DNA from: a virus
Strand: one strand, 5' to 3'
IMG/VR virus record: IMGVR_UViG_3300030339_000025
DNA: 64,000 nucleotides
This document shows, piece after piece, positions 12,975 to 45,490 of the stretch. A program made the position numbers and the translations under genes. The notes under the pieces were generated by a model. That model was not told the origin of the DNA and did no database searches. It was given only the letters and a program-made list of their open reading frames with translations. Each line of letters starts with the position of its first letter. The stretch's first letter is position 1.

Positions 12975-15900
12975 TTAATTAAATAGGTATTTAATACCAA
13001 ACATCATTTGCCATCTTGAACTAATACCTGTTGAATTTTGGTATGGTTGAGTAAATGGAGTTGTTCCTGTCTGGAATGGAAGCGAAAATGAAGGAGTTTT
13101 TCCATCTGCAGCGAGACCTTCATATTTTAATATGTTAGTAGCTGTAGGAATTTTAACAACACCCCAATCTCTGTTAATTAAGTTTCCAGCATTAATCATA
13201 TCCACTGAAAACTTAAGTGTGTGTGTCTTAAATTTAATATCTTGTGTAATATTTAAATCTAAGTGACTAAAGTATGGCGCTACAGTTGCATTTCTTTTAG
13301 AGTATTGACCCCTGTGAGTATTAAGATAGGTTGAATTAGAAATAAAAGCGTCTAATTGTGACCAAATTTGTGCAGATGTTCTTGTGTCAGTAACACCTGT
13401 TGTAATTGTACCTAAACCTCCAGAGCCGACTTTAACTAGGTTGATGTCAGCAATTGTTTTTGGAATATACATCAAGTCATTACCTGAATTACCATCACCA
13501 TTTAAGTCACCATTATAAACATATGAATTTACACCGTTATTAGTTAATTCGTAAATTGCTCCAAATGTTGTAGCAAGATATTTTCCTTCATTTAGTTTGT
13601 AAGCGAAGTTGGCAATAAGTCTGTTTGGCTGATAATATGACGCATAACCCAAATTAGCCGCATTAGGATCCTGATTAGAAACAGGTACTGCACTCCATAA
13701 TGACGAGGCTGTTGATCCATATTCTGCGGTGTTCTTGGATACTGAACGTGTGTATGCTATACCATAGGCTAAATTTTCAGTAGTTCTTTGAATTTTTGCA
13801 GTCAAAGTGTAAACATAGCCTTTACTTGAATTACTCATTAAAATTGCATTACCTATATTAGGATTTTCTAAGGTCGCTGTTGGCGTTCCTGCATAATATT
13901 TGTTAGTATTTGCAACCGAAGTTAAGTAACGGGTTCTGTTATCAACACCACCTAATGCAAATCCGTTGGACTCATTTAAATTTATGTTAGAGTAATAAAC
14001 TGCATTAATGTCTTGTGTATAATTGTATTCAGCGCCAATCATCCAGCCATCTTCCAATCTCTTATCAATAGCTAAAGATGACTTCCAAGCTGTTGGATAT
14101 TTAAAGTTGCTAGAAACCAAAGCAGTACTATAAGAAGCATTAGCAGATCCAGCTGTTGGTCTTAAAGCATTAGGATCAACATTAAACGCTGTTTTGTTAG
14201 CTGCATTGGTGAATGAACCAAATTGAATACCATTGTTTGAAGCCTGGTTAGAAATCCAAACGAATGGTGGAGGTCCTGCGAAGATACCAGTACCTCCTCT
14301 GACTTGTAATGTTTTATCACCTTTAGGATTCCAGTTGAAACCTAATCTTGGTGAAACAATAATATTATTCATTGGAGCTTTACCAATGTTATAAGTCGAT
14401 CCATCTTTGAATTTTAATGCATCAAATGTTGGATTATCTGTCATTGACTGTTTGTAGAAGGTTTCATCAAGTCTCAAGCCAAAAGTTAAGGTGAAATCAT
14501 TTGATACTTTCCACTTATCCTGTATGAACTGAGATAATTCTGTTGATCCGGCATTAGCCCAAGGAAATTCACCATTAGGTAAAGCTGAATATTGCAAGTA
14601 GTATGATTTAGCATTTAACTTTCCGTTTTTTGCTGAATTATAAAAGTCTGTCAAGCTATTGAATTGATAAACACCTTGATAACCAGGCGCAAATGCGTTT
14701 TGATATTTTTTAATTGAGTTTTGAGTACCTACTGTGAGTTCATGCGCACCTTTATAATAAGTTAAGATGTCATTTAATTGATAAACGTCTGTATTCAATA
14801 CGTTATTGTAAGTGTACATTTCGTAACCAAAGGTTGTATAAATATTACCATTGTTTAAAATATCAACTAATGGGAAAGTTCCACTACTAGAATGAGGAGA
14901 ACGGAAATCTCTCAATGCAGTATAACCAATTTGTAATTTATTTGATAGCCTATTATTGAAATGAGTATTCAATTCAGCAATAAAAATATTAAAGTTATTA
15001 TTGATTACATAACCACTACCATAGAAAGGCATTGAATAGGTACCTGGCTGCCCACCAGTTGTTTGACCAGAGCCTGGTCTTGAAGTAGATGCAAATTGAT
15101 CGGATGATGATTTTAAGTAGTTGTATTTTAATGTAAAAGTATTCTTACTATTAATGTTCCAGTCTAATTTTGCAGTAATTTTATCAGAATAGGTTTTGAA
15201 AGTATAACCTTGAAAAGCACCTGGATCATATCCAAACTTGGTCTTTAAGAAACTAGATAAAGCTGATAAAGTGTCAGCGTTTGCTTGAGAATAGTTTCCA
15301 CCAGCAGCATGAGATGCGTCTGAAGGCAGCATGGAAGTCGCTGGTGCATCTTGTCTAACTTGTTCTCCACTTACGAAGAAAAATAATTTGTCTTTGATAA
15401 TTGGACCTCCTAAACTAAATCCTTTGATAGAATAATCAAAAGGAGTTTTTACAACTGTTGTTGGACCAACATTGTAACCTAAATAATTTTCATTCCTAGA
15501 ATATTGATAAATAGTTCCTTTGAAAGTATTTGTTCCACTTTTAGTTACGGTGTTAACGCCTGTTCCAGCAAATCCACCTTGCTTAACATCATATGGTGAT
15601 ACGTTAACTTGAATTTGTTCAATAGCTTCTAATGAAATTGGTTGTGCGGATGTTTGTCCACCTAAGATAGATGATAGACCAAATGAGTTATTAAAATTAG
15701 CTCCATCAACTGTCATATTATTATATTGACTACTTCTGCCGCCAATATTCAATCCTTGGGAGGTAGGTTCTAATTTTACAAAATCTTGAATTGAACGATT
15801 TATTGTTGGTAAACGATCAACTTGAGCTCTTGTTATTAACTCCTGAGAACCAGTTCTTGAACTACTAAATGTCTTGTCTTGAACGCCTTTTACAATAACT

Positions 15901-16250
15901 TCTCCTACTTGGATCGCTTCATCAGTAAGTTCAAAATTTTGTTTAAATGTTTGACCTAAATTCAGAAAGATATTGTTTATTTTTTCTGATTTAAGTCCAA
16001 CAAAAGCTGTTGTTAAAGTATATGGCCCACCAATTTTTAAATTTGGTAAGTTATAACGACCATCAGTTCTAGTCGTTGTCATATACTTAGTGCCTGTTGG
16101 AACATGAACTGCCATTACTACAACATCTTGTAATGGCGACTTGCCTTCTAAAATTGTTCCTGAAATTTCAGAAGTGGTTTCTTGTGATTTTGCTATTATT
16201 GAAAACAATATAAGCATTATCACTAACATCACTCTTTTTAATTTTCTCAT
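12975..16250 (-). CDS. TonB-dependent outer-membrane receptor, SusC/RagA-like
   Basis: Signal peptide MRKLKRVMLVIMLILFSIIA. Carboxypeptidase-regulatory-like N-domain, plug and a large beta-barrel. C-terminal ...GIKYLFN aromatic terminus. Confidence 0.8.
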   Translation of the reverse strand: MRKLKRVMLVIMLILFSIIAKSQETTSEISGTILEGKSPLQDVVVMAVHVPTGTKYMTTTRTDGRYNLPNLKIGGPYTLTTAFVGLKSEKINNIFLNLGQTFKQNFELTDEAIQVGEVIVKGVQDKTFSSSRTGSQELITRAQVDRLPTINRSIQDFVKLEPTSQGLNIGGRSSQYNNMTVDGANFNNSFGLSSILGGQTSAQPISLEAIEQIQVNVSPYDVKQGGFAGTGVNTVTKSGTNTFKGTIYQYSRNENYLGYNVGPTTVVKTPFDYSIKGFSLGGPIIKDKLFFFVSGEQVRQDAPATSMLPSDASHAAGGNYSQANADTLSALSSFLKTKFGYDPGAFQGYTFKTYSDKITAKLDWNINSKNTFTLKYNYLKSSSDQFASTSRPGSGQTTGGQPGTYSMPFYGSGYVINNNFNIFIAELNTHFNNRLSNKLQIGYTALRDFRSPHSSSGTFPLVDILNNGNIYTTFGYEMYTYNNVLNTDVYQLNDILTYYKGAHELTVGTQNSIKKYQNAFAPGYQGVYQFNSLTDFYNSAKNGKLNAKSYYLQYSALPNGEFPWANAGSTELSQFIQDKWKVSNDFTLTFGLRLDETFYKQSMTDNPTFDALKFKDGSTYNIGKAPMNNIIVSPRLGFNWNPKGDKTLQVRGGTGIFAGPPPFVWISNQASNNGIQFGSFTNAANKTAFNVDPNALRPTAGSANASYSTALVSSNFKYPTAWKSSLAIDKRLEDGWMIGAEYNYTQDINAVYYSNINLNESNGFALGGVDNRTRYLTSVANTNKYYAGTPTATLENPNIGNAILMSNSSKGYVYTLTAKIQRTTENLAYGIAYTRSVSKNTAEYGSTASSLWSAVPVSNQDPNAANLGYASYYQPNRLIANFAYKLNEGKYLATTFGAIYELTNNGVNSYVYNGDLNGDGNSGNDLMYIPKTIADINLVKVGSGGLGTITTGVTDTRTSAQIWSQLDAFISNSTYLNTHRGQYSKRNATVAPYFSHLDLNITQDIKFKTHTLKFSVDMINAGNLINRDWGVVKIPTATNILKYEGLAADGKTPSFSLPFQTGTTPFTQPYQNSTGISSRWQMMFGIKYLFN

Positions 16251-20181: not shown

Positions 20182-20637
20182 ATGAAGTATTTAAAAAAAT
20201 ATGAAAATTTTAATAAGACCACTTATTATGAGTTTGATGCTATTAAATTTTATAATGATTTCAAAAAAATATTTCATAATGAAAGAGATAACAATTTTAG
20301 GTCTACTGATTTTTTTAAAAATTTAGACAAGTTAGTACCTAACTGGTTAACAGTTCCATTAGATGATACAGTTGAGAAATTAATTCAAGATATACTTATA
20401 AAAAATAGAAAAGTTGTATTTGTTGGTTTAAATGGTGATTTATATGATGGTAAAGTTACATATGTTAAATTTTTTTATTCGGTTTTTTTTAAAAAAATTA
20501 CTTATTCAATAATATTAGATGAAAAAAATAAGTTTATTGATGTTGATTTTACTAAACCAGTTAAGATATATGGAGAACCAACAGAAATAGAAAATATTGT
20601 TGATTTATATTCAAATACAAATAAATATAATATATGA
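20182..20637 (+). CDS. MKxIKxFE/KYNI-family protein (array 1, member 1)
   Basis: MKYLKKYENF...KYNI; stop fused to next start. Confidence 0.55.
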   Translation: MKYLKKYENFNKTTYYEFDAIKFYNDFKKIFHNERDNNFRSTDFFKNLDKLVPNWLTVPLDDTVEKLIQDILIKNRKVVFVGLNGDLYDGKVTYVKFFYSVFFKKITYSIILDEKNKFIDVDFTKPVKIYGEPTEIENIVDLYSNTNKYNI

Positions 20638-21122
20638 AATATTTAAAAAAATTTGAAATATTTGCTACAAATCCAAATCCAAGATTAGATGATCTTAAAA
20701 AGTTATTAAGTCATTTAGTAGAAATGTTTAAAGAATTAGGATATTATCATTTGCCAAAATATGATGAATTTGAATATGTTAATAATTTTTTTAGTAATAA
20801 AATAGGTTTATTTAGTCATTTAGACCGTGGACATCCTGGACATAATTGCTTTGATATTAATGGTGAGTTTTCTAATTCATTAATATTTTTATCAATTACA
20901 GAAAGAATTGGAAGTACAAATGATGATTTAGCAAATTTTATTCCTGAATATTTTAAAACTATAAAAGGATTAAAATTACATAGTGAAGATAATATGTTTT
21001 TTCAGGTAAATTTTGAAGTTGTTGATAATGTTGATAATATAATAAATAAAATATCAATAGAAGATTTTAAACAAAAATTACAATTAAAAAATATAATATA
21101 TGAAACATATAAAATTATTTGA
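20634..21122 (+). CDS. MKxIKxFE/KYNI-family protein (array 1, member 2)
   Basis: MKYLKKFEIF... Confidence 0.55.
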   Translation: MKYLKKFEIFATNPNPRLDDLKKLLSHLVEMFKELGYYHLPKYDEFEYVNNFFSNKIGLFSHLDRGHPGHNCFDINGEFSNSLIFLSITERIGSTNDDLANFIPEYFKTIKGLKLHSEDNMFFQVNFEVVDNVDNIINKISIEDFKQKLQLKNIIYETYKII

Positions 21123-21363
21123 AAATATAGATGATAAAAAACTTATCATTATGAGAGGTGATGATTGGGAAGGAGTTTATTATAATGGTAAATTATTATA
21201 TCAAGGACATTCTATTCGTTGGGATGAGGTATTAAAAAAATTAGGATATAATATAACGTCTAATTATATTGAAGATGATGATTGGGAGAATCTTAACTGG
21301 TCTTTATCAGAAAATATAGAAGATGTAGAAATGATAATAAATTCTAAAAAATATAATGTATAA
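21100..21363 (+). CDS. MKxIKxFE/KYNI-family protein (array 1, member 3)
   Basis: MKHIKLFENI...KYNV. Confidence 0.55.
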   Translation: MKHIKLFENIDDKKLIIMRGDDWEGVYYNGKLLYQGHSIRWDEVLKKLGYNITSNYIEDDDWENLNWSLSENIEDVEMIINSKKYNV

Positions 21364-21366
21364 AAT

Positions 21367-21672
21367 ATGAGATATATAAAAACATTTGAATTTTTTTCAA
21401 CTGAAACAGGGCAAGCATTAGATTATGAAGAAGGTGATATTGTGATTTGTTCTGATGATAAATACAATCCGACAGGTAAATATTTCGCAATAGATAAAGG
21501 TGATAAATACAAAGTTCTAAAAATATATAAATTGCCAGAAGATAAATTTTTAAAAAAAGATTATATGAGAGTTGATGTTGTAAATTTAGAAACTAATGAA
21601 ATTACAAAGGGTTGGGAGTCAACAAGATTTAAGACGACCCTTGAATTTGATGTTGATAAATATAATTTATAA
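21367..21672 (+). CDS. MKxIKxFE/KYNI-family protein (array 1, member 4)
   Basis: MRYIKTFEFF...KYNL. Confidence 0.55.
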   Translation: MRYIKTFEFFSTETGQALDYEEGDIVICSDDKYNPTGKYFAIDKGDKYKVLKIYKLPEDKFLKKDYMRVDVVNLETNEITKGWESTRFKTTLEFDVDKYNL

Positions 21673-21675
21673 AAT

Positions 21676-21966
21676 ATGAAACATATAAAAAAATTTGAAA
21701 ATGTGTATTCCATAAAAAAAGATAACTTATCTATTTTCAAAAATAAATATAAAGATTTTAAAGAAGGTAAATATGTTAAATTTAATGCTAATATTAAGTT
21801 TAATTTGGATGATTATGATGAGATTTTTAGAATAGATTCAATTTCTGAACCAACTTTGCAAGTCTGGGTAAAGTCACTTGAAACAAATAATCATCATTGG
21901 ATTTTATTAAAAAATTTACGATTATTAACAGAATTAGAATTAAATGCATTAAAATATAATATATAG
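21676..21966 (+). CDS. MKxIKxFE/KYNI-family protein (array 1, member 5)
   Basis: MKHIKKFENV...KYNI. Confidence 0.55.
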   Translation: MKHIKKFENVYSIKKDNLSIFKNKYKDFKEGKYVKFNANIKFNLDDYDEIFRIDSISEPTLQVWVKSLETNNHHWILLKNLRLLTELELNALKYNI

Positions 21967-21969
21967 AAT

Positions 21970-22164
21970 ATGAAACACTTAAAAACATTTGAAAATTTAT
22001 TTCCTGAGATTAATCCAATAGAATTTGTTGCACCTACAAGAGAGCATCCATCATATAAAAATGAAGAAAGAAAGAAAAAAAGAAAAAAAATTGGTGAAAT
22101 TGAGCCAGTTATGATGCCGCCTAATCACACAAAAGATGTTATTTCATTTAAAGGAAAGCCTTAA
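21970..22164 (+). CDS. MKxIKxFE-family protein (array 1, member 6; short, basic tail)
   Basis: MKHLKTFENLF... Confidence 0.45.
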   Translation: MKHLKTFENLFPEINPIEFVAPTREHPSYKNEERKKKRKKIGEIEPVMMPPNHTKDVISFKGKP

Positions 22165-22177
22165 ATATAATAAAAAA

Positions 22178-22912
22178 CTATATATAATTTAATTTTAAAT
22201 TACCATTATAATCTTCTATTATATAACTACAGTTTTCAATAAAATCACCAGTGTTATAATATTCATGTTTTATTATTTTAGGTGAATGTGTATGCCCCAT
22301 TAATATAGAATTGCAATTTACTTCTTTAAGTTTTAGTTTAGAAATTTTTTCATATTCATTAATATATTTAATAGCATTTTTAACTTTTGATTTTAGATAG
22401 GATGAAAGACTCCAATAATTAAGTCCAAATATTTTTCTAAAAAAATTATATACTTTATTTATTTTTATTGATAATTCATATGCGGTATCACCTAACCAAT
22501 ATATAAATGTATGCATTCTAATAAATCCATCAAATTGATCACCATGAGTTATGTATATTTTTTCAGTTTCAGTTTCATATATATAGTCATCACAAATTAA
22601 TATATTGCCAAGATAAATGTTAGTACTGTCTATTATATTTCTTATATACATATCATGATTACCAATTATATAATATATATTAACATCTTTAGAATATTTT
22701 AAAATTTTTTGTATAACTTCTAAGTGCGTTTCATTCCAACTAAATTTTTTCCTTTTCATATAGGTCATATCTATAATATCACCTATTAAAAAAAGATTTT
22801 TAAATTCATATTTTTTAAATACTTCTAATATTTTATCTGCCTGAGAGTTTTTATTTCCTAAATGTAAATCACTTATAAATAGTGATTTTATTTTTATTTT
22901 TTCTTGTTTCAT
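22178..22912 (-). CDS. calcineurin-like metallophosphoesterase (LpxH-like)
   Basis: FISDLHLG ... IGDIID ... GNHD motifs. Confidence 0.55.
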   Translation of the reverse strand: MKQEKIKIKSLFISDLHLGNKNSQADKILEVFKKYEFKNLFLIGDIIDMTYMKRKKFSWNETHLEVIQKILKYSKDVNIYYIIGNHDMYIRNIIDSTNIYLGNILICDDYIYETETEKIYITHGDQFDGFIRMHTFIYWLGDTAYELSIKINKVYNFFRKIFGLNYWSLSSYLKSKVKNAIKYINEYEKISKLKLKEVNCNSILMGHTHSPKIIKHEYYNTGDFIENCSYIIEDYNGNLKLNYI

Positions 22913-23601
22913 TAAAAATAATTTATTTTTTCTTTATAATAATTCTCATTATTTTTATTTACTAGTGTCTTATAAAATAATTTTATAACACCAAAATATC
23001 CTATTTTTTTAAATCTTCTATCATCAGAATACACAAATGAATTTACTATATTAAACTTTTTTTTATTTATTTTCCTGCTTAAATTGTAATCCTCAGCGTA
23101 TTGATCATATTTATTAAATCCTTCCAATTCATCAAATTTACTTTTTCTAATAAAAAAGTACATACCAGTTGCAAATGGTTTGTCAAATTTTGATAAAAAT
23201 TGAAATTTATTATTAATAATATAAATGAGATTTGCTATTTTATTATTTCTACATGATATGTTAGTAGTTATTAAATCTAAATTATTATTATTTATTAGGG
23301 TTATTGATTTTTGTAATAAATTATTATCCTTTATAGTTATATCAGCATCTATAAATAGTATAAATTTAGATTTACTTTTTTTTGCACCATTATTTCTGCC
23401 AACTCCAGGCAAACCACCTTTAACTATTTTTATTTTGTGTGATATTTTGTGTGATAAAATATTAAGTATAGTAAAATCAGTAGAATCTGCATCTGCTATA
23501 ATTATATCAAAATCTTGAAAAGATTGTTGTTTTAAACAATCTAATAGACTTACTATATTATTTTCTTCATTTTTTACTGGAATTACAATGGACAAAATCA
23601 T
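22912..23601 (-). CDS. glycosyltransferase family 2
   Basis: SIVIPVKNEE ... DIIIADADSTD (DxD). Confidence 0.6.
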   Translation of the reverse strand: MILSIVIPVKNEENNIVSLLDCLKQQSFQDFDIIIADADSTDFTILNILSHKISHKIKIVKGGLPGVGRNNGAKKSKSKFILFIDADITIKDNNLLQKSITLINNNNLDLITTNISCRNNKIANLIYIINNKFQFLSKFDKPFATGMYFFIRKSKFDELEGFNKYDQYAEDYNLSRKINKKKFNIVNSFVYSDDRRFKKIGYFGVIKLFYKTLVNKNNENYYKEKINYF

Positions 23602-23667
23602 ATATTATATATATGGGAAATACATAAAATATACTTGAAAATCAGTTAAGTTTTGGTTACAATTTGG

Positions 23668-23946
23668 TTACACTCCAGTTACTTTTAATATATTTTCTAA
23701 TTTTAATTTTCTTTCTTCTTTAATATTAATAAAATAATCATGGAAATATATTTCATTTTCTCCGATATATCCTTCTACATATTCAGTTGATTTATTTAGT
23801 CTAAACCTATAATCACTAAAAGGTATATCTTCATTATCATTTATTGTTATAAAGTCATTTGGCTCAAACACAGAGCTTATTCTAATAACTTCATATAATT
23901 TACCTTCGATAAATCCAAAATATGTTTTTTTACAAAATACTTTCAT
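23668..23946 (-). CDS. hypothetical protein
   Basis: 92-aa ORF; C-term KEERKLKLENIL tail motif. Confidence 0.3.
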   Translation of the reverse strand: MKVFCKKTYFGFIEGKLYEVIRISSVFEPNDFITINDNEDIPFSDYRFRLNKSTEYVEGYIGENEIYFHDYFINIKEERKLKLENILKVTGV

Positions 23947-24202
23947 TAATTTTAATTAATTTTTCTTTTCTTGAGAAAGATTTAATTCTATATATTTTAA
24001 ATATTTCTTCTGATTTATATAAATGATGCTCTGTTGCTTCATATTCCCCCCATTCTTCAATACAATGATAATTATCATTCCATCCAGATTTAAAAATAGT
24101 TAAAGATACTGCATTATCTTCATCATGATATTTATAAAAATGTGTAGATTTATATTGAATAAAATTATATTTAGCATTATTAACCGGAACTATCATTCCC
24201 AA
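23930..24202 (-). CDS. hypothetical protein
   Basis: 90-aa ORF. Confidence 0.3.
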   Translation of the reverse strand: MGMIVPVNNAKYNFIQYKSTHFYKYHDEDNAVSLTIFKSGWNDNYHCIEEWGEYEATEHHLYKSEEIFKIYRIKSFSRKEKLIKINESIL

Positions 24203-24666
24203 GTATTATAAGGAAATTTAATTAAATTACAATTATAATATTTTGAATCATTGCTAACTTCTTTTATTAGCCAAGATGGTGATAAAAAAAATTCATTTTC
24301 TTCTTTTAATTCAATTTCAGCAACTACAAGTCCTTTATTTTCACCAGAGAAAATATCAACATCCCAATGTTTTTTACCATATTCAATAACTGTCCGTTCT
24401 TTAATTATTGTTTTATCACACATTTTAAGTAGATCCTTAGCATCTTGAATAGGTATTTCATATTCAAATTCATCTCTAGAAATATTTTCAGTTTTACCTT
24501 TGATTGTAACAAATCCAGTTGTATCTTGTATTCTTATTCTGACTGTTATTCCATTATTACACAAATAGCCTTGTTCTATTTGATATTTATCAACTATTTC
24601 AATAGAACGAATTTCGGACATAAGTTTATATTTATCAACTATAAATTTTCTTTCAATTTCTTTCAT
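24193..24666 (-). CDS. CYTH-domain protein (CyaB-like class IV cyclase / triphosphatase fold)
   Basis: N-terminal EIERKFIV motif and acidic residues spaced as in CYTH. Confidence 0.5.
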   Translation of the reverse strand: MKEIERKFIVDKYKLMSEIRSIEIVDKYQIEQGYLCNNGITVRIRIQDTTGFVTIKGKTENISRDEFEYEIPIQDAKDLLKMCDKTIIKERTVIEYGKKHWDVDIFSGENKGLVVAEIELKEENEFFLSPSWLIKEVSNDSKYYNCNLIKFPYNTWE

Positions 24667-24982
24667 TATCTATTTTATTTAATTTTATTTTTCTAATTTC
24701 TTTTTTTGTATAAAAATAATCTTCAAAATTTGGAAGATATAAATTGTGAATTTCGTTAGTTGAGATAAATGACCATCCTTCATGTGGTGTTTCTTTTCCA
24801 CGAAATACCAAATTAATAATATTATACATAATAACATTAGTAATGTTATTTTCTTTATTCCAGTGTGTGATTTTTTCTATATTATATGTTTTATTTTTAA
24901 GAAAAAGTATGTTAGTATTTTTTACTTTGTAATTTTTCTTACATAAAACTTTATCTCCAATATTAAAATCAATTTTGACCAA
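24653..24982 (-). CDS. hypothetical protein
   Basis: 109-aa ORF; C-term KKEIRKIKLNKI. Confidence 0.3.
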   Translation of the reverse strand: MVKIDFNIGDKVLCKKNYKVKNTNILFLKNKTYNIEKITHWNKENNITNVIMYNIINLVFRGKETPHEGWSFISTNEIHNLYLPNFEDYFYTKKEIRKIKLNKIDNERN

Positions 24983-25478
24983 TTTCTAATATTTTTTTAA
25001 GTTTTTGTTTTCTAACTTCTTTTATACTATCCTCACTTTCAAGCCATTCTATGTCAGAAGTCTTTCTTAGAGATGAAAATTTAGTTCTCATAGTTCTTTT
25101 TACATAATCAAATTGAGTATTATCAAATCCAGATATTAATTCAACATCAGTTAGTTCAATTTTAGACATACCATTAGTGTATCTATCTAATTCTTTAACA
25201 TATAAAATACATCTATATAGTTCACCTGGCGAATTATTTTTATAATCTTCAGGAGACATAAGATTGACGGTGTTATCATAATAACCTTTTCTATTAGACA
25301 TAGTTAATTCTTTTTTTAAGTTATTAAAATTTTCTAATAGTGTTGAGTAGTTTAATTCGGTTTTTTGTAAATTTGAATTAGTTTGTGAACATTTTTTTAT
25401 AATTTTTATATATAAAACAAGAAAGAGTATGCTTGTTGAAAAACATACTCCTAAAGCTATTAAGATCAAAACTGACAT
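24969..25478 (-). CDS. membrane-anchored protein, paralogue of 33311..33706
   Basis: N-terminal TM helix; shared YTNGMSKIELTD ... IEWLESEDSIKEVRKQKLKKI with 33311..33706. Confidence 0.4.
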   Translation of the reverse strand: MSVLILIALGVCFSTSILFLVLYIKIIKKCSQTNSNLQKTELNYSTLLENFNNLKKELTMSNRKGYYDNTVNLMSPEDYKNNSPGELYRCILYVKELDRYTNGMSKIELTDVELISGFDNTQFDYVKRTMRTKFSSLRKTSDIEWLESEDSIKEVRKQKLKKILEIGQN

Positions 25479-25545
25479 ATATTATATTTTTTAATTCATC
25501 TTTTATATTAAAAATTTCTATTCAAGTTTAATTTTATTTTTTATT

Positions 25546-26421
25546 TTAAAAATTCATTTCAACATTCACATCAAATCCAACGCTCTCTTTCATCCTTACT
25601 TCAGCCATTTTCATAATTAATTGTAAATCTGAAAGTGATGCTTTGTTCATTAGAGCACAAATACTTTCTACAATAGTTTTCAATTTTTCTTGATAAGATT
25701 GAAATTTATGATCAAAAAGACCACGAATATAAGAATCTTGATTATCAATTTCGTTTTCATTCAATATAATACTTTCACTCATATCAATAGCACAATTACC
25801 TTTGATCATAATTGAATTGAAGCCAGTTTTAAAAACTAGTATTTTATTATTTTGACGACAAAGATTTTTTGCGGTTTTAATTGCATCATAATCTTGTTTC
25901 ATTTGGTCTGCATAAGACTCACCATCAAAAATACGAACATCAACAATTATTCTATTTTCATCAACACAAACAATTAATATCTTTTTTGTTTTATCCCAAA
26001 TATTTGATTCAAAGAAATTTGGTTCCGAATTCAAATATGAACTAATATTTGTGTCACCACCAGTCCTCATTTGAGCGTTTTTCTTATTAAAATGTACTTT
26101 TATTTCTTTGACTTCAAATAGACCTTTGAAATCCATACCACGTTCATTTTTAGGTAATTCTCTATCAAGCAATAGAGCTATAATATTTTCAACAAATCCT
26201 GATGCTTTAACATCAAGTTTATTTTCTCTAAAAATACGGAAAGCAACATCAAGATTGATACCTTTGAGTAACTGAAGTTTTTCAATAATTTCGTTTGCAA
26301 TTTTCATAATATTTCTTTGTATTTTACAAGCCACCAAACCTATAATCAGTAGTAATATTAAGTACTGATCGTATTGATTCTGCTGCAAATTTGAAACCTT
26401 TACCATTTTCATCAACAGCAT
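25546..26421 (-). CDS. hypothetical protein, possible PD-(D/E)xK nuclease
   Basis: GMDFKGLFEVKEIK resembles D...ExK; weak. Confidence 0.25.
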   Translation of the reverse strand: MLLMKMVKVSNLQQNQYDQYLILLLIIGLVACKIQRNIMKIANEIIEKLQLLKGINLDVAFRIFRENKLDVKASGFVENIIALLLDRELPKNERGMDFKGLFEVKEIKVHFNKKNAQMRTGGDTNISSYLNSEPNFFESNIWDKTKKILIVCVDENRIIVDVRIFDGESYADQMKQDYDAIKTAKNLCRQNNKILVFKTGFNSIMIKGNCAIDMSESIILNENEIDNQDSYIRGLFDHKFQSYQEKLKTIVESICALMNKASLSDLQLIMKMAEVRMKESVGFDVNVEMNF

Positions 26422-26713
26422 TTACTGGGAATTTTGGAGCTTTTGTATTAAGTTCGGTGATTGTGAAATTGACACCTCTGTTTGTGAAAGTTTTTCCGAT
26501 TATGTCTTCTGGCAAATTAAGCATTTGATAAATATAAGAACTGTACTTTTTAACTGCATTTACAACTTCAACTTTCATTTTCATTGTAAAATCATTTTCT
26601 CCTAGAATACCACCGTTATTTTTAATGGATACACCGTACTTTTTTGCGATATTTTCTAATGCAATTTGTGATTCTTCTGAGATTTTCTTGGCTAAGTTTT
26701 TATCAAATGACAT
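26324..26713 (-). CDS. hypothetical protein
   Basis: 129-aa ORF overlapping downstream gene start region. Confidence 0.25.
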   Translation of the reverse strand: MSFDKNLAKKISEESQIALENIAKKYGVSIKNNGGILGENDFTMKMKVEVVNAVKKYSSYIYQMLNLPEDIIGKTFTNRGVNFTITELNTKAPKFPVNAVDENGKGFKFAAESIRSVLNITTDYRFGGL

Positions 26714-26770
26714 AGTATGTGTTTAATTGTTTAATAGTACAAAGATAAGGAAAAATTTTGATATGACAAA

Positions 26771-27343: not shown

Positions 27344-27652
27344 TTATAAATTATATTTTCTTATATAATCATATTCATATTTTAATTCTTCAGCATATTT
27401 CCAAAAACTTTCTATTGGCACCCAATTATCTTCTTCTTCTTTAAATTTTGTATAGGTAGTTTCACCAATATGTCGTCTATCTCCAGTTGACCAAATTCCT
27501 TTATCTTCAACATAATGTACCGAACCTTCTTTTATAAAGGTGATTCTATTTAACCAATGATATGATCTATGAGCAGTTATCGTTATATCTGATTTTTTGT
27601 ACCAATATCTTTCACCAAATTCATTTAACCAATATTTTTTATCTTCAGTCAT
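27344..27652 (-). CDS. hypothetical protein
   Basis: 102-aa Trp/Tyr-rich ORF. Confidence 0.3.
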   Translation of the reverse strand: MTEDKKYWLNEFGERYWYKKSDITITAHRSYHWLNRITFIKEGSVHYVEDKGIWSTGDRRHIGETTYTKFKEEEDNWVPIESFWKYAEELKYEYDYIRKYNL

Positions 27653-27771
27653 ATATTATTTATTTTTATTAACAATATCTTTATCAGCAACATCTTCATT
27701 TTCTACATATTCTTGTTCTTGCTGAAAATTATTAATTTTTGGTAAATACCAATCAACTACATATATATGAT

Positions 27772-42534: not shown

Positions 42535-42619
42535 TTTTTTTATTATTTTTTTTGTAGAATTCTATCTATTCAATTATAGATAAATATTTATTTTAGTTTT
42601 GAAAAATTATATATAGAAT

Positions 42620-42937
42620 ATGAAAATTAAAAGATTTAATGAATCATTAAGCAGACCAAAATATGATCATACTGAAAAATTATTAAAGGTACAAATTAGT
42701 GGTGAATTTTTAGTTCCATTAAGTAAAATAAAAGAAACTGAAGCTTATTATAAAATTATAAATAAAGGCTATAGGCAAGATTATTATTCTGCAATATGGT
42801 ATGGTATAGAAGAATATGCTGCTGAACGCGGTGAAAGTGAATTTTCTTGGATATTAGTTGATGGTAACGGTAATGTTATTGAAGATGAGAAAGAATTTGA
42901 TAAACAAGTAGAAATAATTAAAAAATATAACGTATGA
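42620..42937 (+). CDS. MKxIKxFE/KYNI-family protein (array 3, member 1)
   Basis: MKIKRFNESL...KYNV. Confidence 0.5.
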   Translation: MKIKRFNESLSRPKYDHTEKLLKVQISGEFLVPLSKIKETEAYYKIINKGYRQDYYSAIWYGIEEYAAERGESEFSWILVDGNGNVIEDEKEFDKQVEIIKKYNV

Positions 42938-43416
42938 AATTTATAAAAACATATGAAGGCTATGGTTATAAATGGAAAAATATAGTTGAAAAAAATGACA
43001 AATTATATATTAATTTATATCAATTAGCACGTGAAATGGAATATTCTGCTAATAATGAAAGAGAATTTAAAAAATTAAGAAGAGGACATTATTCTACACC
43101 TTCTGATATAGAAATTATATCAAATCAGGAATGTGAATATAGGAATTTAATTTTTAAGTTATTAATTGACAAAGTTATATCATTTGAAGATGAAAATTCT
43201 AATTCACATTTTGGTATATGTGATAGAATTTCGTTTGAATCAGGGCCAAGCGGATTCGTTAAAGAAATTCAATATACATTTCAATTTGAATATATAAGTA
43301 TAAGAATATATGAAGAAGATGAATGGTATAATGTAGGCGCAGGAAATAAAGATGTTATAGTACATTTAAATATAGATCCTGAAATATATAAAAATAATAT
43401 AAAATTTAATATATGA
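42934..43416 (+). CDS. MKxIKxFE/KYNI-family protein (array 3, member 2)
   Basis: MKFIKTYEGY...KFNI. Confidence 0.5.
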   Translation: MKFIKTYEGYGYKWKNIVEKNDKLYINLYQLAREMEYSANNEREFKKLRRGHYSTPSDIEIISNQECEYRNLIFKLLIDKVISFEDENSNSHFGICDRISFESGPSGFVKEIQYTFQFEYISIRIYEEDEWYNVGAGNKDVIVHLNIDPEIYKNNIKFNI

Positions 43417-44108
43417 TAACTAAATTCGAATTATATAATGAAAGTATAAATTTTAATTTAAAACTTATAACAAGTTTATTTCCAATATTATATAAAAAGG
43501 CAATAAAAAATATTATTAATATACATCAATCATTATCAGAGGATCATATTCTTGAATTTATAAACCATTATATTTATAATAACTATGGTGTAGATTTGCC
43601 TAACTCTAAAGAAATATATAATTATGTTAAATATTTAGTTCATAAAAATTTTATACATAAAAACGATAATATGTCTGAATCATTAATGTCATACACATTT
43701 ACAACTAGTGGAATGACAAGTAAAAAATATTATTTACCAACTACACCTATTGATAGTAGGGATTTATTTATTTATATTAGAACTCTTGATATTATAAAAA
43801 CTAAAAATTTATTAAAACAAGGTGCAGATGTAAATATTCAAGATAAAAATTTTGGAAGGACACCATTAATCAAACTTATATTAGGATATAGTCATAACGC
43901 GGAAAAAATAATTAAAATGATTAAAATATTAGTTAAATATGGTGTAGATTTAGACATTCAGGATTACAACGGATGTACTGCATTAATGGCAGCATCTGGT
44001 GCTAAATATATAGTATCTTATCCAATAATGTATGAATTAATAGAACTTGGTGCAAATTGGAATATTAAAACATTAGATAATAAAGATTTTATAGATATAT
44101 TGATGTAA
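43413..44108 (+). CDS. ankyrin-repeat protein with family-type N-terminus
   Basis: MITKFELYNES N-term; GADVNIQDKNFGRTPL ... GVDLDIQDYNGCTALM ankyrin consensus. Confidence 0.55.
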   Translation: MITKFELYNESINFNLKLITSLFPILYKKAIKNIINIHQSLSEDHILEFINHYIYNNYGVDLPNSKEIYNYVKYLVHKNFIHKNDNMSESLMSYTFTTSGMTSKKYYLPTTPIDSRDLFIYIRTLDIIKTKNLLKQGADVNIQDKNFGRTPLIKLILGYSHNAEKIIKMIKILVKYGVDLDIQDYNGCTALMAASGAKYIVSYPIMYELIELGANWNIKTLDNKDFIDILM

Positions 44109-44184
44109 GTTGATAAATCTATAGTTGAAGAATTGAAAACAAAATATCCAGAAAAATTTAAAAAATATCTAATTAAAAAAGAAA

Positions 44185-44466
44185 TTGATAAATATAATTT
44201 ATGAAATAACCATATGGTTTAAAAAATATAAGTTTATTATGAAAAAAACTAAAACGGAAATTATAAAGAGTGAAAAAATTACAAAAGATATGGCATTATA
44301 TGAATTATCTAATAATGATTTATCTAAAGATGAAATAGATGAATATCTTGAAATAATAACAGCTATTAATGAAGGATTATATGTTTATAACCTTACAACA
44401 ACTAATGGTGAATATTTATTATATGCTAAAGATGAGGCGATTAAAGATACAAAAAAGAAAAAATGA
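44185..44466 (+). CDS. hypothetical protein
   Basis: 93-aa ORF inside array 3. Confidence 0.3.
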   Translation: MINIIYEITIWFKKYKFIMKKTKTEIIKSEKITKDMALYELSNNDLSKDEIDEYLEIITAINEGLYVYNLTTTNGEYLLYAKDEAIKDTKKKK

Positions 44467-44984
44467 TAACAAAATTTAAAATCTTTGAACAAAGTTCAAA
44501 TCTGAATAATCAGATATTTGAAAATGTAAAAAATGATTATATGCTTGGTAAGGATCAATTCTTTATTAATGATGTTATGAAATATTTAGATATTGATGTT
44601 GATACGATGATCATGGATGAAAAAACTGAACTTAAAAGTAAATATAATATAGATGTTATTGATTTTATTAAAGAAATTCTATTAAATAAAACTATTATAT
44701 TTCAAAATGAGAATAGAATTCAAAAAAATCCAATTAGAAAAGGTAAAGTTATTAATGTTAATATTTTTTTTTATAAAGATGATTTTTGGCTTCATGTCAA
44801 TTTAAAAACTCCACAAATTTTAATAGATAAAAAATTTGTGGAGTACCAAGGAACGTTAAATGGTTGTGGTGATTTTTTAATAAAAAATAATAGTATAGTT
44901 ACAATTTATGATTATGATGCTGATAATAAACCATTACATAAATTAGTTAAATTAAAAAAGGAAACTGAAAAATATAATATATGA
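44463..44984 (+). CDS. MKxIKxFE/KYNI-family protein (array 3)
   Basis: MITKFKIFEQ...KYNI. Confidence 0.5.
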   Translation: MITKFKIFEQSSNLNNQIFENVKNDYMLGKDQFFINDVMKYLDIDVDTMIMDEKTELKSKYNIDVIDFIKEILLNKTIIFQNENRIQKNPIRKGKVINVNIFFYKDDFWLHVNLKTPQILIDKKFVEYQGTLNGCGDFLIKNNSIVTIYDYDADNKPLHKLVKLKKETEKYNI

Positions 44985-45490
44985 AACATATACAATTATA
45001 TGAGGCATTTAAAAAGCATCTTGTAGGTTGGGTTGGACCATCATTTATACATCGTGAGCAACCAATTAGAGATGAATTTGCTAAGGTTAAAGATGAATTA
45101 TATAAATCATTTAATTTAAAAAGTTTAAAAGAAGATTGTCAAACATATGGTATTGATTTTTATAATTTAGTTAAAGAATTAATTATAAATAAAAAAATAG
45201 CATTTCAATGCACTTGGTGCTATAGTTCAGATTTTTTTGAGGATTTTCCACATTCTAAACCTCATAGTATTATTGGTGTGTGTAAAGATGTTATATTTGA
45301 AAATCCAAGATATCATGATTCTGATCTTTTAGTTAAAATTGATAATGATGATAAGTGGCACACATTATTTGTAAGGTTTAATAACCCTAAATCTCAACCT
45401 AAGTTTAGCGTTAGAATATATAATTATACAGAAGGAATATTAATTAAAAAATTAGAAATGCTAAAAAATATGGAAAAATATAATATATAA
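44981..45490 (+). CDS. MKxIKxFE/KYNI-family protein (array 3)
   Basis: MKHIQLYEAF...KYNI. Confidence 0.5.
   Translation: MKHIQLYEAFKKHLVGWVGPSFIHREQPIRDEFAKVKDELYKSFNLKSLKEDCQTYGIDFYNLVKELIINKKIAFQCTWCYSSDFFEDFPHSKPHSIIGVCKDVIFENPRYHDSDLLVKIDNDDKWHTLFVRFNNPKSQPKFSVRIYNYTEGILIKKLEMLKNMEKYNI

What the first reader, a model, noticed from the sequence alone, without database searches (positions are those of the whole stretch)
20182..22164. Tandem arrays of a hypervariable small-protein family with invariant termini (MK[YH]IKxFE ... KYNI) and a conserved stop/start junction
Seventeen adjacent plus-strand genes lie in three arrays (20182-22164, 34210-37657, 42620-45490). They share only an N-terminal MK(Y/H/R)IK(T/L/K)(F/Y)E(N/D)F decapeptide and a C-terminal K(Y/F)N(I/V/L/M) tetrapeptide. 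At DNA level this is the junction AAATATAATATATGAAACATATAAAAAATTTGAA, in which the previous stop overlaps the next ATG. Bodies range from ~60 to ~440 aa and are unrelated, including an ankyrin-repeat protein and a SAM methyltransferase. A shared short N-terminal tag on unrelated cargo is reminiscent of the capsid-targeting sequence of T4 internal proteins (MKTYQEFIAE, cleaved after (L/I)xE). This suggests a set of virion-packaged, co-injected effector or anti-defence proteins. Alternatively the conserved junction could be a recombination or promoter element that drives cassette duplication and exchange.
Basis: partly seen in the sequence, partly recalled or inferred. Interest (0 to 1): 0.88.

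Follow-up and report, generated by a model that had tools for sequence, protein, structure and literature searches.

The report
Address-tagged accessory protein arrays, huge phage
A huge, uncultured, AT-rich phage carries three gene arrays whose otherwise unrelated small proteins all start and end with the same short peptide tags, most likely address labels like those phage T4 uses to load proteins into its capsid for injection, so the tags could reveal the phage's whole injected arsenal.

Summary
The window holds three plus-strand arrays of 18 ORFs. Thirteen ORFs start MK[YH][IL]Kx[FY]E and 13 end K[YF]N[ILVM], against 0.016 and 0.07 expected by chance. The window comes from a huge phage related to LR756500/LR756501.

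The same termini occur in about 350 distinct proteins from about 30 related viral contigs. Their bodies fall into at least 163 sequence families, including SH3-like barrels, ankyrin, LRR, two HAD types and methyltransferases.

Codon usage shows that selection acts on the peptide, not the DNA. AlphaFold leaves the N tag unstructured. Orthologous arrays differ by whole cassettes whose breakpoints lie at the junctions.

Relatives carry a fuller N tag, MKYIKxYEEF[LIV]xE. It contains T4's capsid-targeting heptad and its (L/I)xE protease site. Those relatives also encode T4-type portal and prohead protease. Their tagged arrays follow the same box as structural genes and include Tad3- and Acb1-like anti-defence proteins.

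Best reading (about 0.5): an expanded T4-type capsid-targeting and injection system. The cleavage site is missing in the window's clade, the C tag is unexplained, and packaging is untested.

The parts
20182..20637 (+). Array 1, gene 1 (151 aa). N tag MKYLKKYENF, C tag NKYNI. ATGA overlap with the next gene.
   Evidence: A 46%-identical orthologue is in L112. L113 has an unrelated gene at this position.
20634..21122 (+). Array 1, gene 2 (162 aa here). N tag MKYLKKFEIF. The C tag is lost through a 1-nt shorter A-run at 21084-21089. In near-identical contig L108 the gene is 156 aa and ends KKYNI* with an ATGA overlap.
   Evidence: Body family 2 has 14 members.
21100..21363 (+). Array 1, gene 3 (87 aa). 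N tag MKHIKLFENI, C tag KKYNV. Absent from both syntenic relatives examined (L112, L113).
21367..21672 (+). Array 1, gene 4 (101 aa). N tag MRYIKTFEFF, C tag DKYNL. Predicted SH3-like barrel plus C-terminal helix, with residues 1-16 unstructured.
   Evidence: Orthologues are in L112 and L113.
21676..21966 (+). Array 1, gene 5 (96 aa). N tag MKHIKKFENV, C tag LKYNI. L113 has an unrelated 113-aa cassette at this position and L112 has none.
21970..22164 (+). Array 1, gene 6 (64 aa). N tag MKHLKTFENL, no C tag. Conserved as the last gene of the array in all three genomes compared.
34198..34206 (+). TATATATAA box 4 nt before the first ATG of array 2. It resembles the [AG]ATATATAA box found upstream of structural genes and tagged arrays in LR756500. 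Possible late promoter.
   Evidence: function inferred
34210..34515 (+). Array 2, gene 1 (101 aa). Variant N end MIINFCDFINE, C tag DKFNI. Member of the largest body family (family 0, SH3-like barrel).
34512..35828 (+). Array 2, gene 2 (438 aa). N tag MKYIKSYENF, C tag SKFNM. No Pfam or PHROG match.
35831..36172 (+). Array 2, gene 3 (113 aa). N tag MKYIKLYEEL, C tag KKFNI.
36169..36501 (+). Array 2, gene 4 (110 aa). N tag MKRIKLFEDF, C tag AKYNI.
36498..37319 (+). Array 2, gene 5 (273 aa). SAM-dependent methyltransferase. The N end MKKIKLFEDFLFE contains the T4-CTS-like heptad F-E-D-F-L-F-E. No C tag.
37316..37657 (+). Array 2, gene 6 (113 aa). N tag MKYIKTFDSI, no C tag here. Other members of its body family (family 3) end in KFNI.
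42608..42619 (+). TATATATAGAAT box directly before the first ATG of array 3. The same TATATAGAAT decamer also precedes the ATGs at 3292 and 21970.
   Evidence: function inferred
42620..42937 (+). Array 3, gene 1 (105 aa). Degenerate N end MKIKRFNES, C tag KKYNV.
42934..43416 (+). Array 3, gene 2 (160 aa). N tag MKFIKTYEGY, C tag IKFNI.
43413..44204 (+). Array 3, gene 3. Ankyrin-repeat protein with variant N tag MITKFELYNE. The ORF stops at an in-frame TAA (44106-44108). The next 31 in-frame codons still encode the family's tail ...KYPEKFKKYLIKKEIDKYNL* with the C tag.
44236..44466 (+). Array 3, gene 4 (76 aa from the ATG). Neither tag. Lies inside the array.
44463..44984 (+). Array 3, gene 5 (173 aa). 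Variant N tag MITKFKIFEQ, C tag EKYNI.
44981..45490 (+). Array 3, gene 6 (169 aa). N tag MKHIQLYEAF, C tag EKYNI. Weakly similar to gene 5 (E 0.002).

Best explanation
The window belongs to an uncultured, AT-rich huge phage of the clade that includes LR756500 and LR756501. That clade has T4-type recombination genes, and LR756500 also has T4-type head genes. The three arrays are operons of accessory genes. Their products share two short peptide modules that work as address labels rather than as parts of the folds.
- An unstructured N-terminal tag, M-K-[YH]-[IL]-K-x-[FY]-E-x-hydrophobic.
- A C-terminal tail: an amphipathic helix followed by [AST]-N-K-[FY]-N-[ILVM]-COOH.

**Shown here.**
- The tags are under protein-level selection.
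- They sit on many unrelated folds.
- They are shared by hundreds of proteins in the clade.
- The arrays gain, lose and swap whole cassettes exactly at the tag-encoding junctions.

**Inferred.**
- The N tag is the clade's version of the T4 capsid-targeting sequence. During late infection it would bind the prohead scaffolding core, so the tagged proteins would be enclosed in the capsid and injected with the DNA into the next host. There they would act at once as anti-defence and host-manipulating effectors, using binding domains (ankyrin, LRR, SH3-like) and enzymes.
- In relatives the tag ends in a T4-type (L/I/V)-x-E site and would be cut off by the gp21-type prohead protease. In the window's subclade that site is gone, so the tag is probably retained or cut elsewhere.
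- The clade-specific C tail may give a second contact. Its partner is unknown.
- The near-identical 35-45 bp that encode tail plus tag at every gene boundary also serve, as a by-product, as homology for cassette shuffling.
For: 1. **Non-chance motifs.** N and C motifs occur at 13 ORF ends each, against 0.016 and 0.066 expected.
2. **Clade-wide spread.** The junction pattern hits 107 stretches from about 30 IMG/VR contigs of up to 330 kb, but only one of 185,579 species-representative bacterial and archaeal genomes. That yields 360 unique tagged proteins in 163 body families. 72% of ORFs chosen by the C motif alone carry the N motif, and 91% the reverse.
4. **Peptide-level selection.** Synonymous codons at conserved residues are used as freely as, or more freely than, in the bodies. 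For the conserved Asn, AAC is 29-35% against 12.8% in bodies. For Tyr3, TAC is 23-24% against 8.3%. Leu4 uses TTA, TTG, CTA and CTT. Replacements are conservative (Y/F, I/L/V/M).
5. **Flexible tag.** pLDDT is below 50 for residues 1-6 of the family-0 model and residues 1-16 of the window's 21367 protein, while the bodies are confident.
6. **Link to T4.**
   - T4 IPII and IPIII start MKTYQEFIAE, and IPI starts MKTFKEF.
   - In T4, targeting depends on residues 4 and 7, and processing on residues 8 and 10 (PMC9026906).
   - The window tag keeps M1, K2, hydrophobic 4, K5 and F/Y7.
   - Relatives have MKYIKEYEEFILE (LR756500) and MK.[VI]KL[FY]E[EQD]F[LVI][NT]E (L119-L132), which contain [FY]-[EQ]-E-F-[LIV]-x-E.
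   - In LR756500, 19 of 699 ORFs have that heptad within the first 20 aa, against about 1.5 expected.
7. **T4-type head genes in relatives.** LR756500 has portal (E 4e-33), gp21-type protease (phmmer 1.4e-8; PHROG head maturation protease 1.4e-40), terminase and sheath. A second tag-bearing contig, IMGVR_UViG_3300017913_001781, also encodes the protease.
8. **Timing.** In LR756500 the box [AG]ATATATAA precedes sheath, protease and other structural genes. It is missing around the replication genes. It precedes about 7 of about 10 leading genes of tagged arrays. Three tagged genes lie inside the structural module. Window arrays 2 and 3 have TATATATAA and TATATATAG just before their first ATG.
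9. **Content.** One tagged array in a relative (L125) encodes Tad3 (4.8e-22) and Acb1-like (3.3e-6, at the gathering score) proteins.
10. **Cassette turnover at junctions**.
[quoted passage not shown] T4 Alt is processed at both termini (PMC9026906).
Against: - There are no virion proteomes or isolates for this clade, so packaging and injection are pure inference.
- In the window's own subclade the T4-type [LIV]xE site after the tag is not enriched. Only 23% of members have one at residues 9-25, which is background level.
- T4-type head genes were not found in the 64-kb window or in the short loci of its subclade. They are shown only for relatives.
- Some tagged proteins are odd capsid cargo. 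Examples are an HNH-endonuclease-family protein in LR756500, a 5'-nucleotidase, and HAD phosphatases.
- About 17% of the window's genes are tagged, far above T4's three Ips.
- Tagged proteins are mostly acidic (median pI 6.25), unlike the basic T4 Ips.
- The conserved C-terminal tail has no counterpart in the T4 CTS model.
- The similarity to the T4 CTS spans only 5-7 residues and was recognised post hoc.
- The 'late' box is calibrated only by its position in LR756500, not by transcript data.
Confidence: 0.5

Rival explanations
1. The tags are address or recognition peptides for a partner other than the prohead. Candidates are a host or phage AAA+ protease or chaperone (a timed degron), a PDZ-like reader of the aromatic-x-hydrophobic C-terminus, or an intracellular compartment such as a cage built by the major-vault-protein-like gene next to array 2.
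For: - The tags are peptide-level, flexible and modular, which fits any short linear recognition motif.
- The window's subclade lacks the protease site expected for a T4-type propeptide.
- The cargo includes cytoplasmic enzymes and an HNH-family protein.
- An 803-aa MVP-like protein lies about 1 kb from array 2. In LR756500 its homologue lies about 6 kb from a tagged array.
- The C end [FY]-N-[ILVM]-COOH has the form of a class II PDZ ligand (my knowledge, not tested).
Against: - No candidate reader was identified.
- A 36-kb stretch around the MVP gene of LR756501 has no tagged genes.
- Vault cargo in eukaryotes uses a ~160-aa INT domain, not short peptides (my knowledge).
- The sequence link to the T4 CTS, the co-occurring T4-type protease and the structural-gene-type upstream box all point to the capsid.
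Confidence: 0.2
2. The N-terminal peptide is a standard expression leader. It would give newly captured genes a good start context in a host that does not use Shine-Dalgarno pairing. The shared termini would persist because new genes enter the arrays by recombination at the junctions.
For: - Tags occur only on accessory genes organised as cassettes.
- The junction is A/U-rich, and most junctions are ATGA overlaps.
- TATATAGAAT recurs immediately before several ATGs, including one internal junction.
Against: - Synonymous C- and G-ending codons are not avoided at the conserved residues; C-ending codons for Tyr, His and Asn are used more than in the bodies.
- Specific residues (F/Y7, E8, Asn at -2) are kept rather than mere A/U richness.
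- The structural genes checked in LR756500 do not carry the tag: sheath MAISPQ, protease MKSDKK, portal MAGFTD.
- The C-terminal module is a 14-aa helix pattern, not a nucleotide pattern.
Confidence: 0.1
3. The conserved junction is primarily a DNA element (a recombination site, promoter or terminator-promoter cassette) that drives duplication and exchange. This would resemble the promoter-stem-loop cassettes of T4-type phages or integron attC sites.
For: - Cassette indels and replacements have breakpoints at the junctions.
- Non-orthologous junctions cross-match over 39-68 bp at 76-89% identity.
- TATA-rich boxes resemble the junction sequence.
Against: - There is no conservation beyond coding need. 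Third positions and synonymous first positions vary at body level.
- Only the last codon (forced by the ATGA overlap) and Lys at -4 are restricted.
- The apparent out-of-frame relic at 21089-21104 is a 1-nt homopolymer variant that is intact in a near-identical contig.
- N and C tags occur independently in different subclades.
Confidence: 0.07
4. This is one very divergent paralogous family. The termini are conserved because they are structural parts of a common fold.
For: - Both ~100-aa members whose structure was predicted have the same SH3-like barrel with a C-terminal helix, although BLAST and HMM searches do not connect them.
- The largest family has more than 500 members in the protein database.
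Against: - Ankyrin, LRR, HAD (two types) and Rossmann methyltransferase bodies carry the same termini.
- HMMs of 17 body families hardly merge.
- The N tag is unstructured in both models.
- The C tag is replaced by NADDFGFFDN, or is absent, in subclades that keep the N tag.
Confidence: 0.05

Closest known systems
T-even phage internal proteins (Ip1, Ip2, Ip3 and others) with the capsid-targeting sequence (CTS)
   Same: - A leader of about 10 aa at the extreme N-terminus is shared by otherwise unrelated small proteins encoded in hypervariable hotspots.
- The shared positions are M1, K2, hydrophobic 4, [KQ]5 and F7. Relatives of the window carry the full [FY]-[EQ]-E-F-[LIV]-x-E heptad with the protease site.
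- The known T-even cargo is anti-defence (PMC12373910). Tad3-like and Acb1-like proteins occur among tagged proteins here.
- T4-type portal and gp21-type protease are present in relatives.
   Different: - The scale differs: 18 genes in 64 kb and at least 163 body families in the clade, against 3 per T4 genome and about 10 known overall.
- The tag is three residues longer.
- The window's subclade has lost the (L/I)xE site and gained a conserved ~14-aa C-terminal tail.
- The cargo is mostly acidic and includes repeat proteins and enzymes.
- Packaging is untested.
T4 Alt, and the processed ejection proteins of phiKZ/SPN3US-type giant phages
   Same: Larger enzymes and many different proteins are packed in the head with the help of propeptides removed by a gp21-type protease. 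Alt is processed at both its N and C termini (PMC9026906; PMC5694885 and PMC7411985, listed).
   Different: The propeptides of those proteins are not a single shared short motif, and their genes are not arranged as tandem cassettes with a common stop/start junction.
Phage P1 Dar anti-restriction proteins packaged in the head
   Same: Anti-defence proteins are loaded into capsids and injected (PMC9024508 and PMC12810830, listed).
   Different: Loading follows an ordered protein-protein hierarchy, not a common terminal peptide. No sequence similarity was tested here.
Encapsulin cargo-loading peptides
   Same: A short terminal peptide, usually C-terminal, is appended to unrelated cargo enzymes and docks them inside an HK97-fold shell (my knowledge). 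This is a possible analogy for the KFNI tail.
   Different: There is no sequence similarity. No encapsulin operon context was seen, and this was not tested.
Promoter-early stem-loop (PeSL) mobile cassettes of T4-type phages, and integron cassettes
   Same: Accessory ORFs are flanked by repeated short sequences in hyperplastic regions, with cassette gain and loss between relatives (my knowledge; turnover shown).
   Different: Here the repeated sequence is coding and is maintained at the peptide level. No stem-loop or integrase was found.

Membership tests
T4-type capsid-targeting sequence / internal-protein system | A short N-terminal leader shared by otherwise unrelated proteins | tested here: met
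   13 window ORFs and about 230 dereplicated clade proteins carry the leader. Bodies fall into at least 163 families, including Ank, LRR, HAD, methyltransferase and SH3-like.
T4-type capsid-targeting sequence / internal-protein system | Targeting determinants: hydrophobic or aromatic residue at position 4 and Phe at position 7 of the leader (PMC9026906) | tested here: met
   In the window and its clade, position 4 is I/L and position 7 is F/Y. In T4, IPIII has Y4 and F7, and IPI has F4 and F7. This is a sequence match only; function was not tested.
T4-type capsid-targeting sequence / internal-protein system | A (L/I)-x-E prohead-protease site closing the leader | tested here: not met
   In the window's subclade there is no enrichment of [LIV]xE at residues 9-25 (23% of members, background level). 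Only 2 window ORFs have the heptad. The feature is met in relatives: 19 ORFs in LR756500, nearly all tags in L125, and 77 of 120 methyltransferase homologues.
T4-type capsid-targeting sequence / internal-protein system | The genome encodes a gp21-type prohead protease and a T4-type portal or core | tested here: inconclusive
   Present in LR756500 and in tag-bearing contig IMGVR_UViG_3300017913_001781. Not found in the 64-kb window or in the short loci of its subclade. The rest of this genome is not available.
T4-type capsid-targeting sequence / internal-protein system | The proteins are physically present in virions and are injected | not testable with these tools
   No isolate or proteome exists for the clade. 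All homologues are metagenomic and unnamed.
T4-type capsid-targeting sequence / internal-protein system | The genes lie in hypervariable loci that differ between close relatives | tested here: met
   Array 1 has 6, 5 and 3 cassettes in three syntenic genomes, with replacements at junctions.
T4-type capsid-targeting sequence / internal-protein system | Expression is compatible with prohead assembly (late) | tested here: inconclusive
   In LR756500 the same upstream box is found before structural genes and before tagged arrays, and it is absent around the replication genes. Similar boxes precede window arrays 2 and 3. There are no transcript data.
DNA-level cassette element (PeSL / attC-like) | Nucleotide conservation of the boundary beyond what the encoded peptide requires | tested here: not met
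   Synonymous usage at conserved codons equals or exceeds body usage, whether or not the search seeds are included.
Single paralogous protein family | All members share one homologous body or fold | tested here: not met
   Pfam finds Ank, LRR_4, HAD_SAK_2, NT5C and methyltransferase domains on tagged proteins. HMMs do not merge the families. A large SH3-like subfamily does exist.

The most novel reading that the evidence does not exclude
The N tag and the clade-specific C tail together form a two-signal protein-sorting code of huge phages. The code would mark the complete set of proteins delivered into the capsid, or into another phage-built compartment. That set would cover more than a hundred cargo families, including eukaryote-like ankyrin and LRR binders and anti-defence enzymes. 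The C-terminal [FY]-N-[ILVM]-COOH tail would be read by a separate receptor, such as the shell interior, a PDZ-like reader or the vault-like protein. If so, the injected effector repertoire of uncultured huge phages could be read directly from sequence.
Probability: 0.2. Interest if true: 0.9.

Novelty: new variant of a known kind. Interest (0 to 1): 0.74.

Why it matters
- **A sequence signature for cargo.** If the tag is a capsid-targeting signal, a simple signature would identify the whole packaged and injected protein arsenal of a large clade of uncultured huge phages. That covers hundreds of proteins that now have no annotation. It would mark them as candidates for anti-defence and host-takeover functions.
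- **Reach of the T4 mechanism.** It would extend a mechanism known only from T-even phages to distant relatives with genomes of 460 kb and more.
- **How the arsenal is renewed.** It would show that the arsenal turns over by cassette exchange at tag-encoding junctions.
- **A practical tool.** The tag could be used to load foreign proteins into such capsids.
- **Value even if the partner is different.** A shared terminal code on more than 160 unrelated protein families would still be a new handle on phage cell biology.

Tried and rejected
- **Nucleotide similarity to known phages.** Megablast of 25 kb of the window found no match in the phage collection. A first attempt was 1 base too long.
- **Searches with tagged proteins against cultured or deposited phages.** tblastn with a family-0 member and with a tagged protein from L129 found no match.
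- **PHROGs on window members.** Four tagged window proteins scanned (34512, 44981, 20182, 42934) had no hits.
- **Fold search.** Searching the family-0 model against viral predicted structures gave only weak matches to uncharacterised proteins.
- **Junction in bacterial and archaeal genomes.** One hit in an Asgard MAG contig, with no tagged ORFs. I treat it as chance or mis-binning.
- **Out-of-frame junction as evidence for DNA-level selection.** The junction at 21089-21122 is explained by a 1-nt A-run difference from a near-identical contig.
- **Bacteroidota-type TAnnTTTG promoter before the arrays.** Only array 3 has one, 26 nt upstream. None of the 33 loosely-defined tagged genes in LR756500 has one.
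- **Co-occurrence with the MVP-like gene.** It holds in the window and in LR756500 but not in the 36 kb examined around the MVP gene of LR756501.
- **T4 head-gene homologues in the window and short loci.** None found.
- **Protease in the window's own subclade.** The search for related loci with the LR756500 protease returned only the best 80 of 484 loci, and none came from the window's subclade. The question stays open.
- **RNA genes.** No tRNA or Rfam match in the window.
- **Literature.** Repoila et al. 1994, on ip locus polymorphism, is not held in the library. Four literature searches found no description of this feature in huge phages.


Full report
**What the window is.** The window has 19-34% GC per 2-kb window and tightly packed short genes. 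An 803-aa protein with major-vault-protein shoulder and repeat domains (30782-33193, minus strand) is about 50% identical to proteins of the uncultured huge phages LR756500 (462 kb) and LR756501/LR756503 (735 kb). Near-identical metagenomic contigs of up to 76 kb exist. The window also carries a Bacteroidota-type TonB-dependent receptor, sugar-nucleotide enzymes, glycosyltransferases, an RCC1-repeat protein, and homologues of T4 small genes (Y16D, 30.3) and RNA ligase. Megablast against deposited phages found no nucleotide-level relative.

**Checking the observation.** Three plus-strand arrays are present and hold 18 ORFs.
- Thirteen of the 136 window ORFs of at least 50 aa begin with M[KR]x[ILV][KRQ]x[FY][EDN]. 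None of 322 internal Met positions match, and composition predicts 0.016.
- Thirteen ORFs end in [KR][YF]N[ILVM], against 0.066 expected.
- Nine of 15 internal junctions are ATGA overlaps and four have 2-3 nt spacers.
A degenerate version occurs seven times, on the plus strand only, against none in shuffles.
- With termini masked, BLASTP links only 44463 to 44981 (E 0.002) and 21676 to 34210 (E 0.009).
- Pfam confirms ankyrin repeats in 43413-44108 and gives weak methyltransferase hits for 36498-37319. The methyltransferase is then confirmed by 1436 homologues.

**The feature is clade-wide.**
- The junction pattern finds 107 stretches from about 30 IMG/VR contigs of up to 330 kb and 19-31% GC. 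Among 185,579 species-representative bacterial and archaeal genomes it finds one stretch, which has no tagged ORFs.
- In the viral stretches plus the window there are 360 unique ORFs with one or both motifs. They form 349 clusters at 90% identity and 163 body families. HMMs of the 17 largest families barely merge them.
- The two motifs are strongly coupled. Of ORFs chosen only by the C motif, 72% carry the N motif. Of ORFs chosen only by the N motif, 91% carry the C motif.
- The C module extends to about 14 residues with a helix-like pattern, E-x-L-E-x-x-[IL]-x-[AST]-N-K-[FY]-N-[IL].
- Pfam scans of 43 distinct tagged families find Ank, LRR_4, HAD_SAK_2 (1e-19), NT5C (3e-12) and Methyltransf_24 (4e-9).
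- The largest family gives 512 database hits, all metagenomic and unnamed.

**Peptide or DNA?** I compared codon use in 203 dereplicated members that carry both motifs. Synonymous codons at the conserved residues are used as freely as in the gene bodies, or more so.
- The conserved Asn is AAC in 35% of members, against 12.8% in bodies.
- Tyr3 is TAC in 23%, against 8.3%.
- His3 is CAC in 31%, against 13.7%.
- Leu4 uses TTA, TTG, CTA and CTT.
- Only the last sense codon (NTA, forced by the ATGA overlap) and Lys at -4 (AAA 98%) are restricted.
- Leaving out the junctions that had served as search seeds changes nothing.
- Replacements are conservative at the amino-acid level (Y/F, I/L/V/M).

The apparently out-of-frame junction at the end of 20634-21122 is a 1-nt shorter A-run. 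In near-identical contig L108 the gene ends KKYNI* with the usual overlap.

**Cassette behaviour.** Array 1 lies between the same NUDIX and metallophosphoesterase genes in three genomes, but its content differs.

| Genome | Cassettes (aa) |
|---|---|
| Window | 151, 162, 87, 101, 96, 64 |
| L113 | 101*, 147, 103, 113*, 66 |
| L112 | 170, 102, 64 |

Asterisks mark cassettes unrelated to the window gene at the same position. The 147-, 103- and 66-aa genes of L113 are 61%, 66% and 79% identical to the window's 162-, 101- and 64-aa genes. The 170-, 102- and 64-aa genes of L112 are 46%, 64% and 84% identical to the window's 151-, 101- and 64-aa genes. Nucleotide matches stop at the junctions. Non-orthologous junctions cross-match over 39-68 bp at 76-89% identity. 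Junction homology is thus a plausible substrate for shuffling, as a consequence of the conserved peptides.

**The link to T4.**
- *Relatives carry the N tag with a different C end or none.* Near the MVP gene of LR756500, five consecutive genes start MKYIKEYEEFI, but four of them end NADDFG[FM][FL]DN. Two of these are LRR proteins. A search with the N-tag coding pattern alone found 14 more contigs (30-37% GC). Their arrays start MK.[VI]KL[FY]E[EQD]F[LVI][NT]E and have no common C end. One contig, L125, has at least 12 such genes in a row. The UvsX-like recombinase on one of these contigs (L129) is 62% identical to LR756500's and 35-38% identical to those of Lak megaphages and T4-like cyanophages.
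- *T4 sequences.* I read the T4 genome directly. IPII and IPIII begin MKTYQEFIAE and IPI begins MKTFKEFTS. According to PMC9026906, the first ten residues of IPIII suffice for encapsidation. Residues 4 and 7 matter for targeting, and residues 8 and 10 for processing by gp21. Alt is processed at both termini.
- *Alignment.* Without an offset, the window tag shares M1, K2, hydrophobic 4, K5 (as in IPI) and F/Y7. With a three-residue offset, the relatives' tags contain [FY]-[EQ]-E-F-[LIV]-x-E, which is T4's Y-Q-E-F-I-A-E including the (L/I)xE cleavage site.
- *Enrichment.* In the complete LR756500 genome, 19 of 699 ORFs have this heptad within the first 20 residues, against about 1.5 expected, and all 19 start MK[YF][IL] or, in one case, ME. 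Among homologues of the window's methyltransferase, 77 of 120 have it at the N end and none has it elsewhere.
- *Head genes.* LR756500 encodes a T4-type portal (4e-33), a gp21-type protease (PHROG head maturation protease, 1.4e-40), terminase and sheath. A second tag-bearing contig also encodes this protease.

**Timing and content.** In LR756500 the box [AG]ATATATAA or TATAAATA lies within 45 nt upstream of 61 of 625 genes, against 2.1% expected by chance.
- It is densest in the structural region, where it precedes sheath, protease and a 550-aa gene next to the protease.
- It is absent from the 22 genes around the UvsX gene.
- It precedes about seven of about ten leading genes of tagged arrays.
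- Three tagged genes sit inside the structural module.
- None of the 33 loosely defined tagged genes has the Bacteroidota -7 box TAnnTTTG.

In the window, arrays 2 and 3 have TATATATAA and TATATATAG four to five nucleotides before their first ATG. Many minus-strand operons instead have TAnnTTTG about 30 nt upstream. One tagged array in a relative (L125) contains a Tad3 Thoeris-inhibitor domain (4.8e-22), an Acb1-like 2H phosphoesterase (3.3e-6, at the gathering score) and a zeta-toxin-like kinase. The literature states that T-even Ips share only the N-terminal leader, inhibit restriction systems and lie in a hotspot (PMC12373910; PMC3012670).

**What does not fit.**
- The window's subclade has no enrichment of [LIV]xE after the tag, so T4-style removal of the tag is not supported there.
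- The C tail has no T4 counterpart apart from Alt's C-terminal processing.
- One tagged LR756500 protein belongs to a PHROG annotated as HNH endonuclease. Other tagged proteins are nucleotidases and phosphatases.
- About a sixth of the window's genes are tagged.
- The proteins are mostly acidic.
- No head genes were found in the window or in the short loci of its subclade. The protease search returned only the best 80 loci, none from that subclade.
- Packaging itself cannot be tested with these tools.

**Verdict.** It is well supported that the termini are modular peptide tags on a large, fast-turning-over set of accessory proteins of a huge-phage clade. I consider it the most likely reading, at about 0.5, that the N tag is a diverged capsid-targeting sequence and that the arrays encode packaged, injected effectors. 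The main rival is a different reader for the same tags. I found no description of this feature in four literature searches. I classify it as a new variant of a known kind: the T-even internal-protein system, greatly expanded and with an added C-terminal signal.

Noticed in passing
window 30782-33193 (-): An 803-aa protein with major-vault-protein shoulder, repeat and cap-helix similarity (E 2e-12 to rat and human MVP, residues 441-722). It is conserved at about 50% identity in huge phages LR756500 and LR756501. A vault-like protein in a phage is unusual, and its role is unknown.
   Followed up: partly
window 12975-16250 (-): A 1091-aa TonB-dependent receptor of Bacteroidota type (CarboxypepD_reg + Plug + barrel, with a signal peptide) in a stretch of higher GC (about 34%). 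It is probably host-derived and hints at a Bacteroidota host. It is also present in related contig L112.
   Followed up: partly
window 44106-44204: The ankyrin gene has an in-frame TAA. The following 31 in-frame codons still encode the family's conserved tail and C tag (…KYPEKFKKYLIKKEIDKYNL*). This is a recent nonsense mutation or a sequence variant.
   Followed up: yes
window 21084-21089: The A-run is one base shorter than in near-identical contig L108. This shifts the end of gene 20634-21122 out of the KKYNI* frame. It is either a homopolymer variant or an assembly error.
   Followed up: yes
window, upstream of many genes (e.g. 26714-26770, 28898-28930, 51477-51539 versus 3277-3291, 34198-34206, 52797-52820, 60240-60284): There are two classes of upstream element. 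TAnnTTTG (often TATCTTTG), the Bacteroidota -7 box, lies about 30 nt before many minus-strand operons. TATATATA[AG] lies 4-25 nt before other starts and resembles T4's late TATAAATA. In LR756500 the second class precedes structural genes.
   Followed up: partly
L133 11706-15077 and other sites of LR756500: A different conserved C-terminal motif, NADDFG[FM][FL]DN, ends many N-tagged proteins of LR756500, including LRR proteins. It may align with the window's A-N-K-F-N-I as A-[ND]-x-F-x-hydrophobic.
   Followed up: partly
L111 4127-5341; L112 7679-8893: A TnpB-like gene (OrfB_IS605 / Cas12f-like) is inserted just upstream of the NUDIX gene and array 1 in two related contigs. It is absent at this position in the window.
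   Followed up: no
window 60285-62609 (+): A 774-aa protein made almost entirely of RCC1 repeats (13 repeats), preceded by two TATATATAA boxes. It may be a virion or host-binding protein.
   Followed up: no
window 41412-41791: A 380-nt stretch without a convincing ORF, between convergent genes. It has G+C-rich segments that contrast with the surroundings. No tRNA or Rfam family matched.
   Followed up: partly
window 53250-54301, 50082-50318 and neighbours (via L117): Homologues of T4 small accessory genes (T4_Y16D, Phage_30_3), an RNA ligase, a cytochrome c-like protein and a GIY-YIG/NUMOD endonuclease lie in the right half of the window. This fits a distant T4 relationship.
   Followed up: no
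P0135-P0254 (homologues of window 36498-37319): This methyltransferase family occurs on contigs of up to 633 kb. It keeps a CTS-like N end (e.g. MNILNWQLFLEELVG) across very divergent members, and many end in ...KN.KFK, which is reminiscent of the NKFNI tail.
   Followed up: partly
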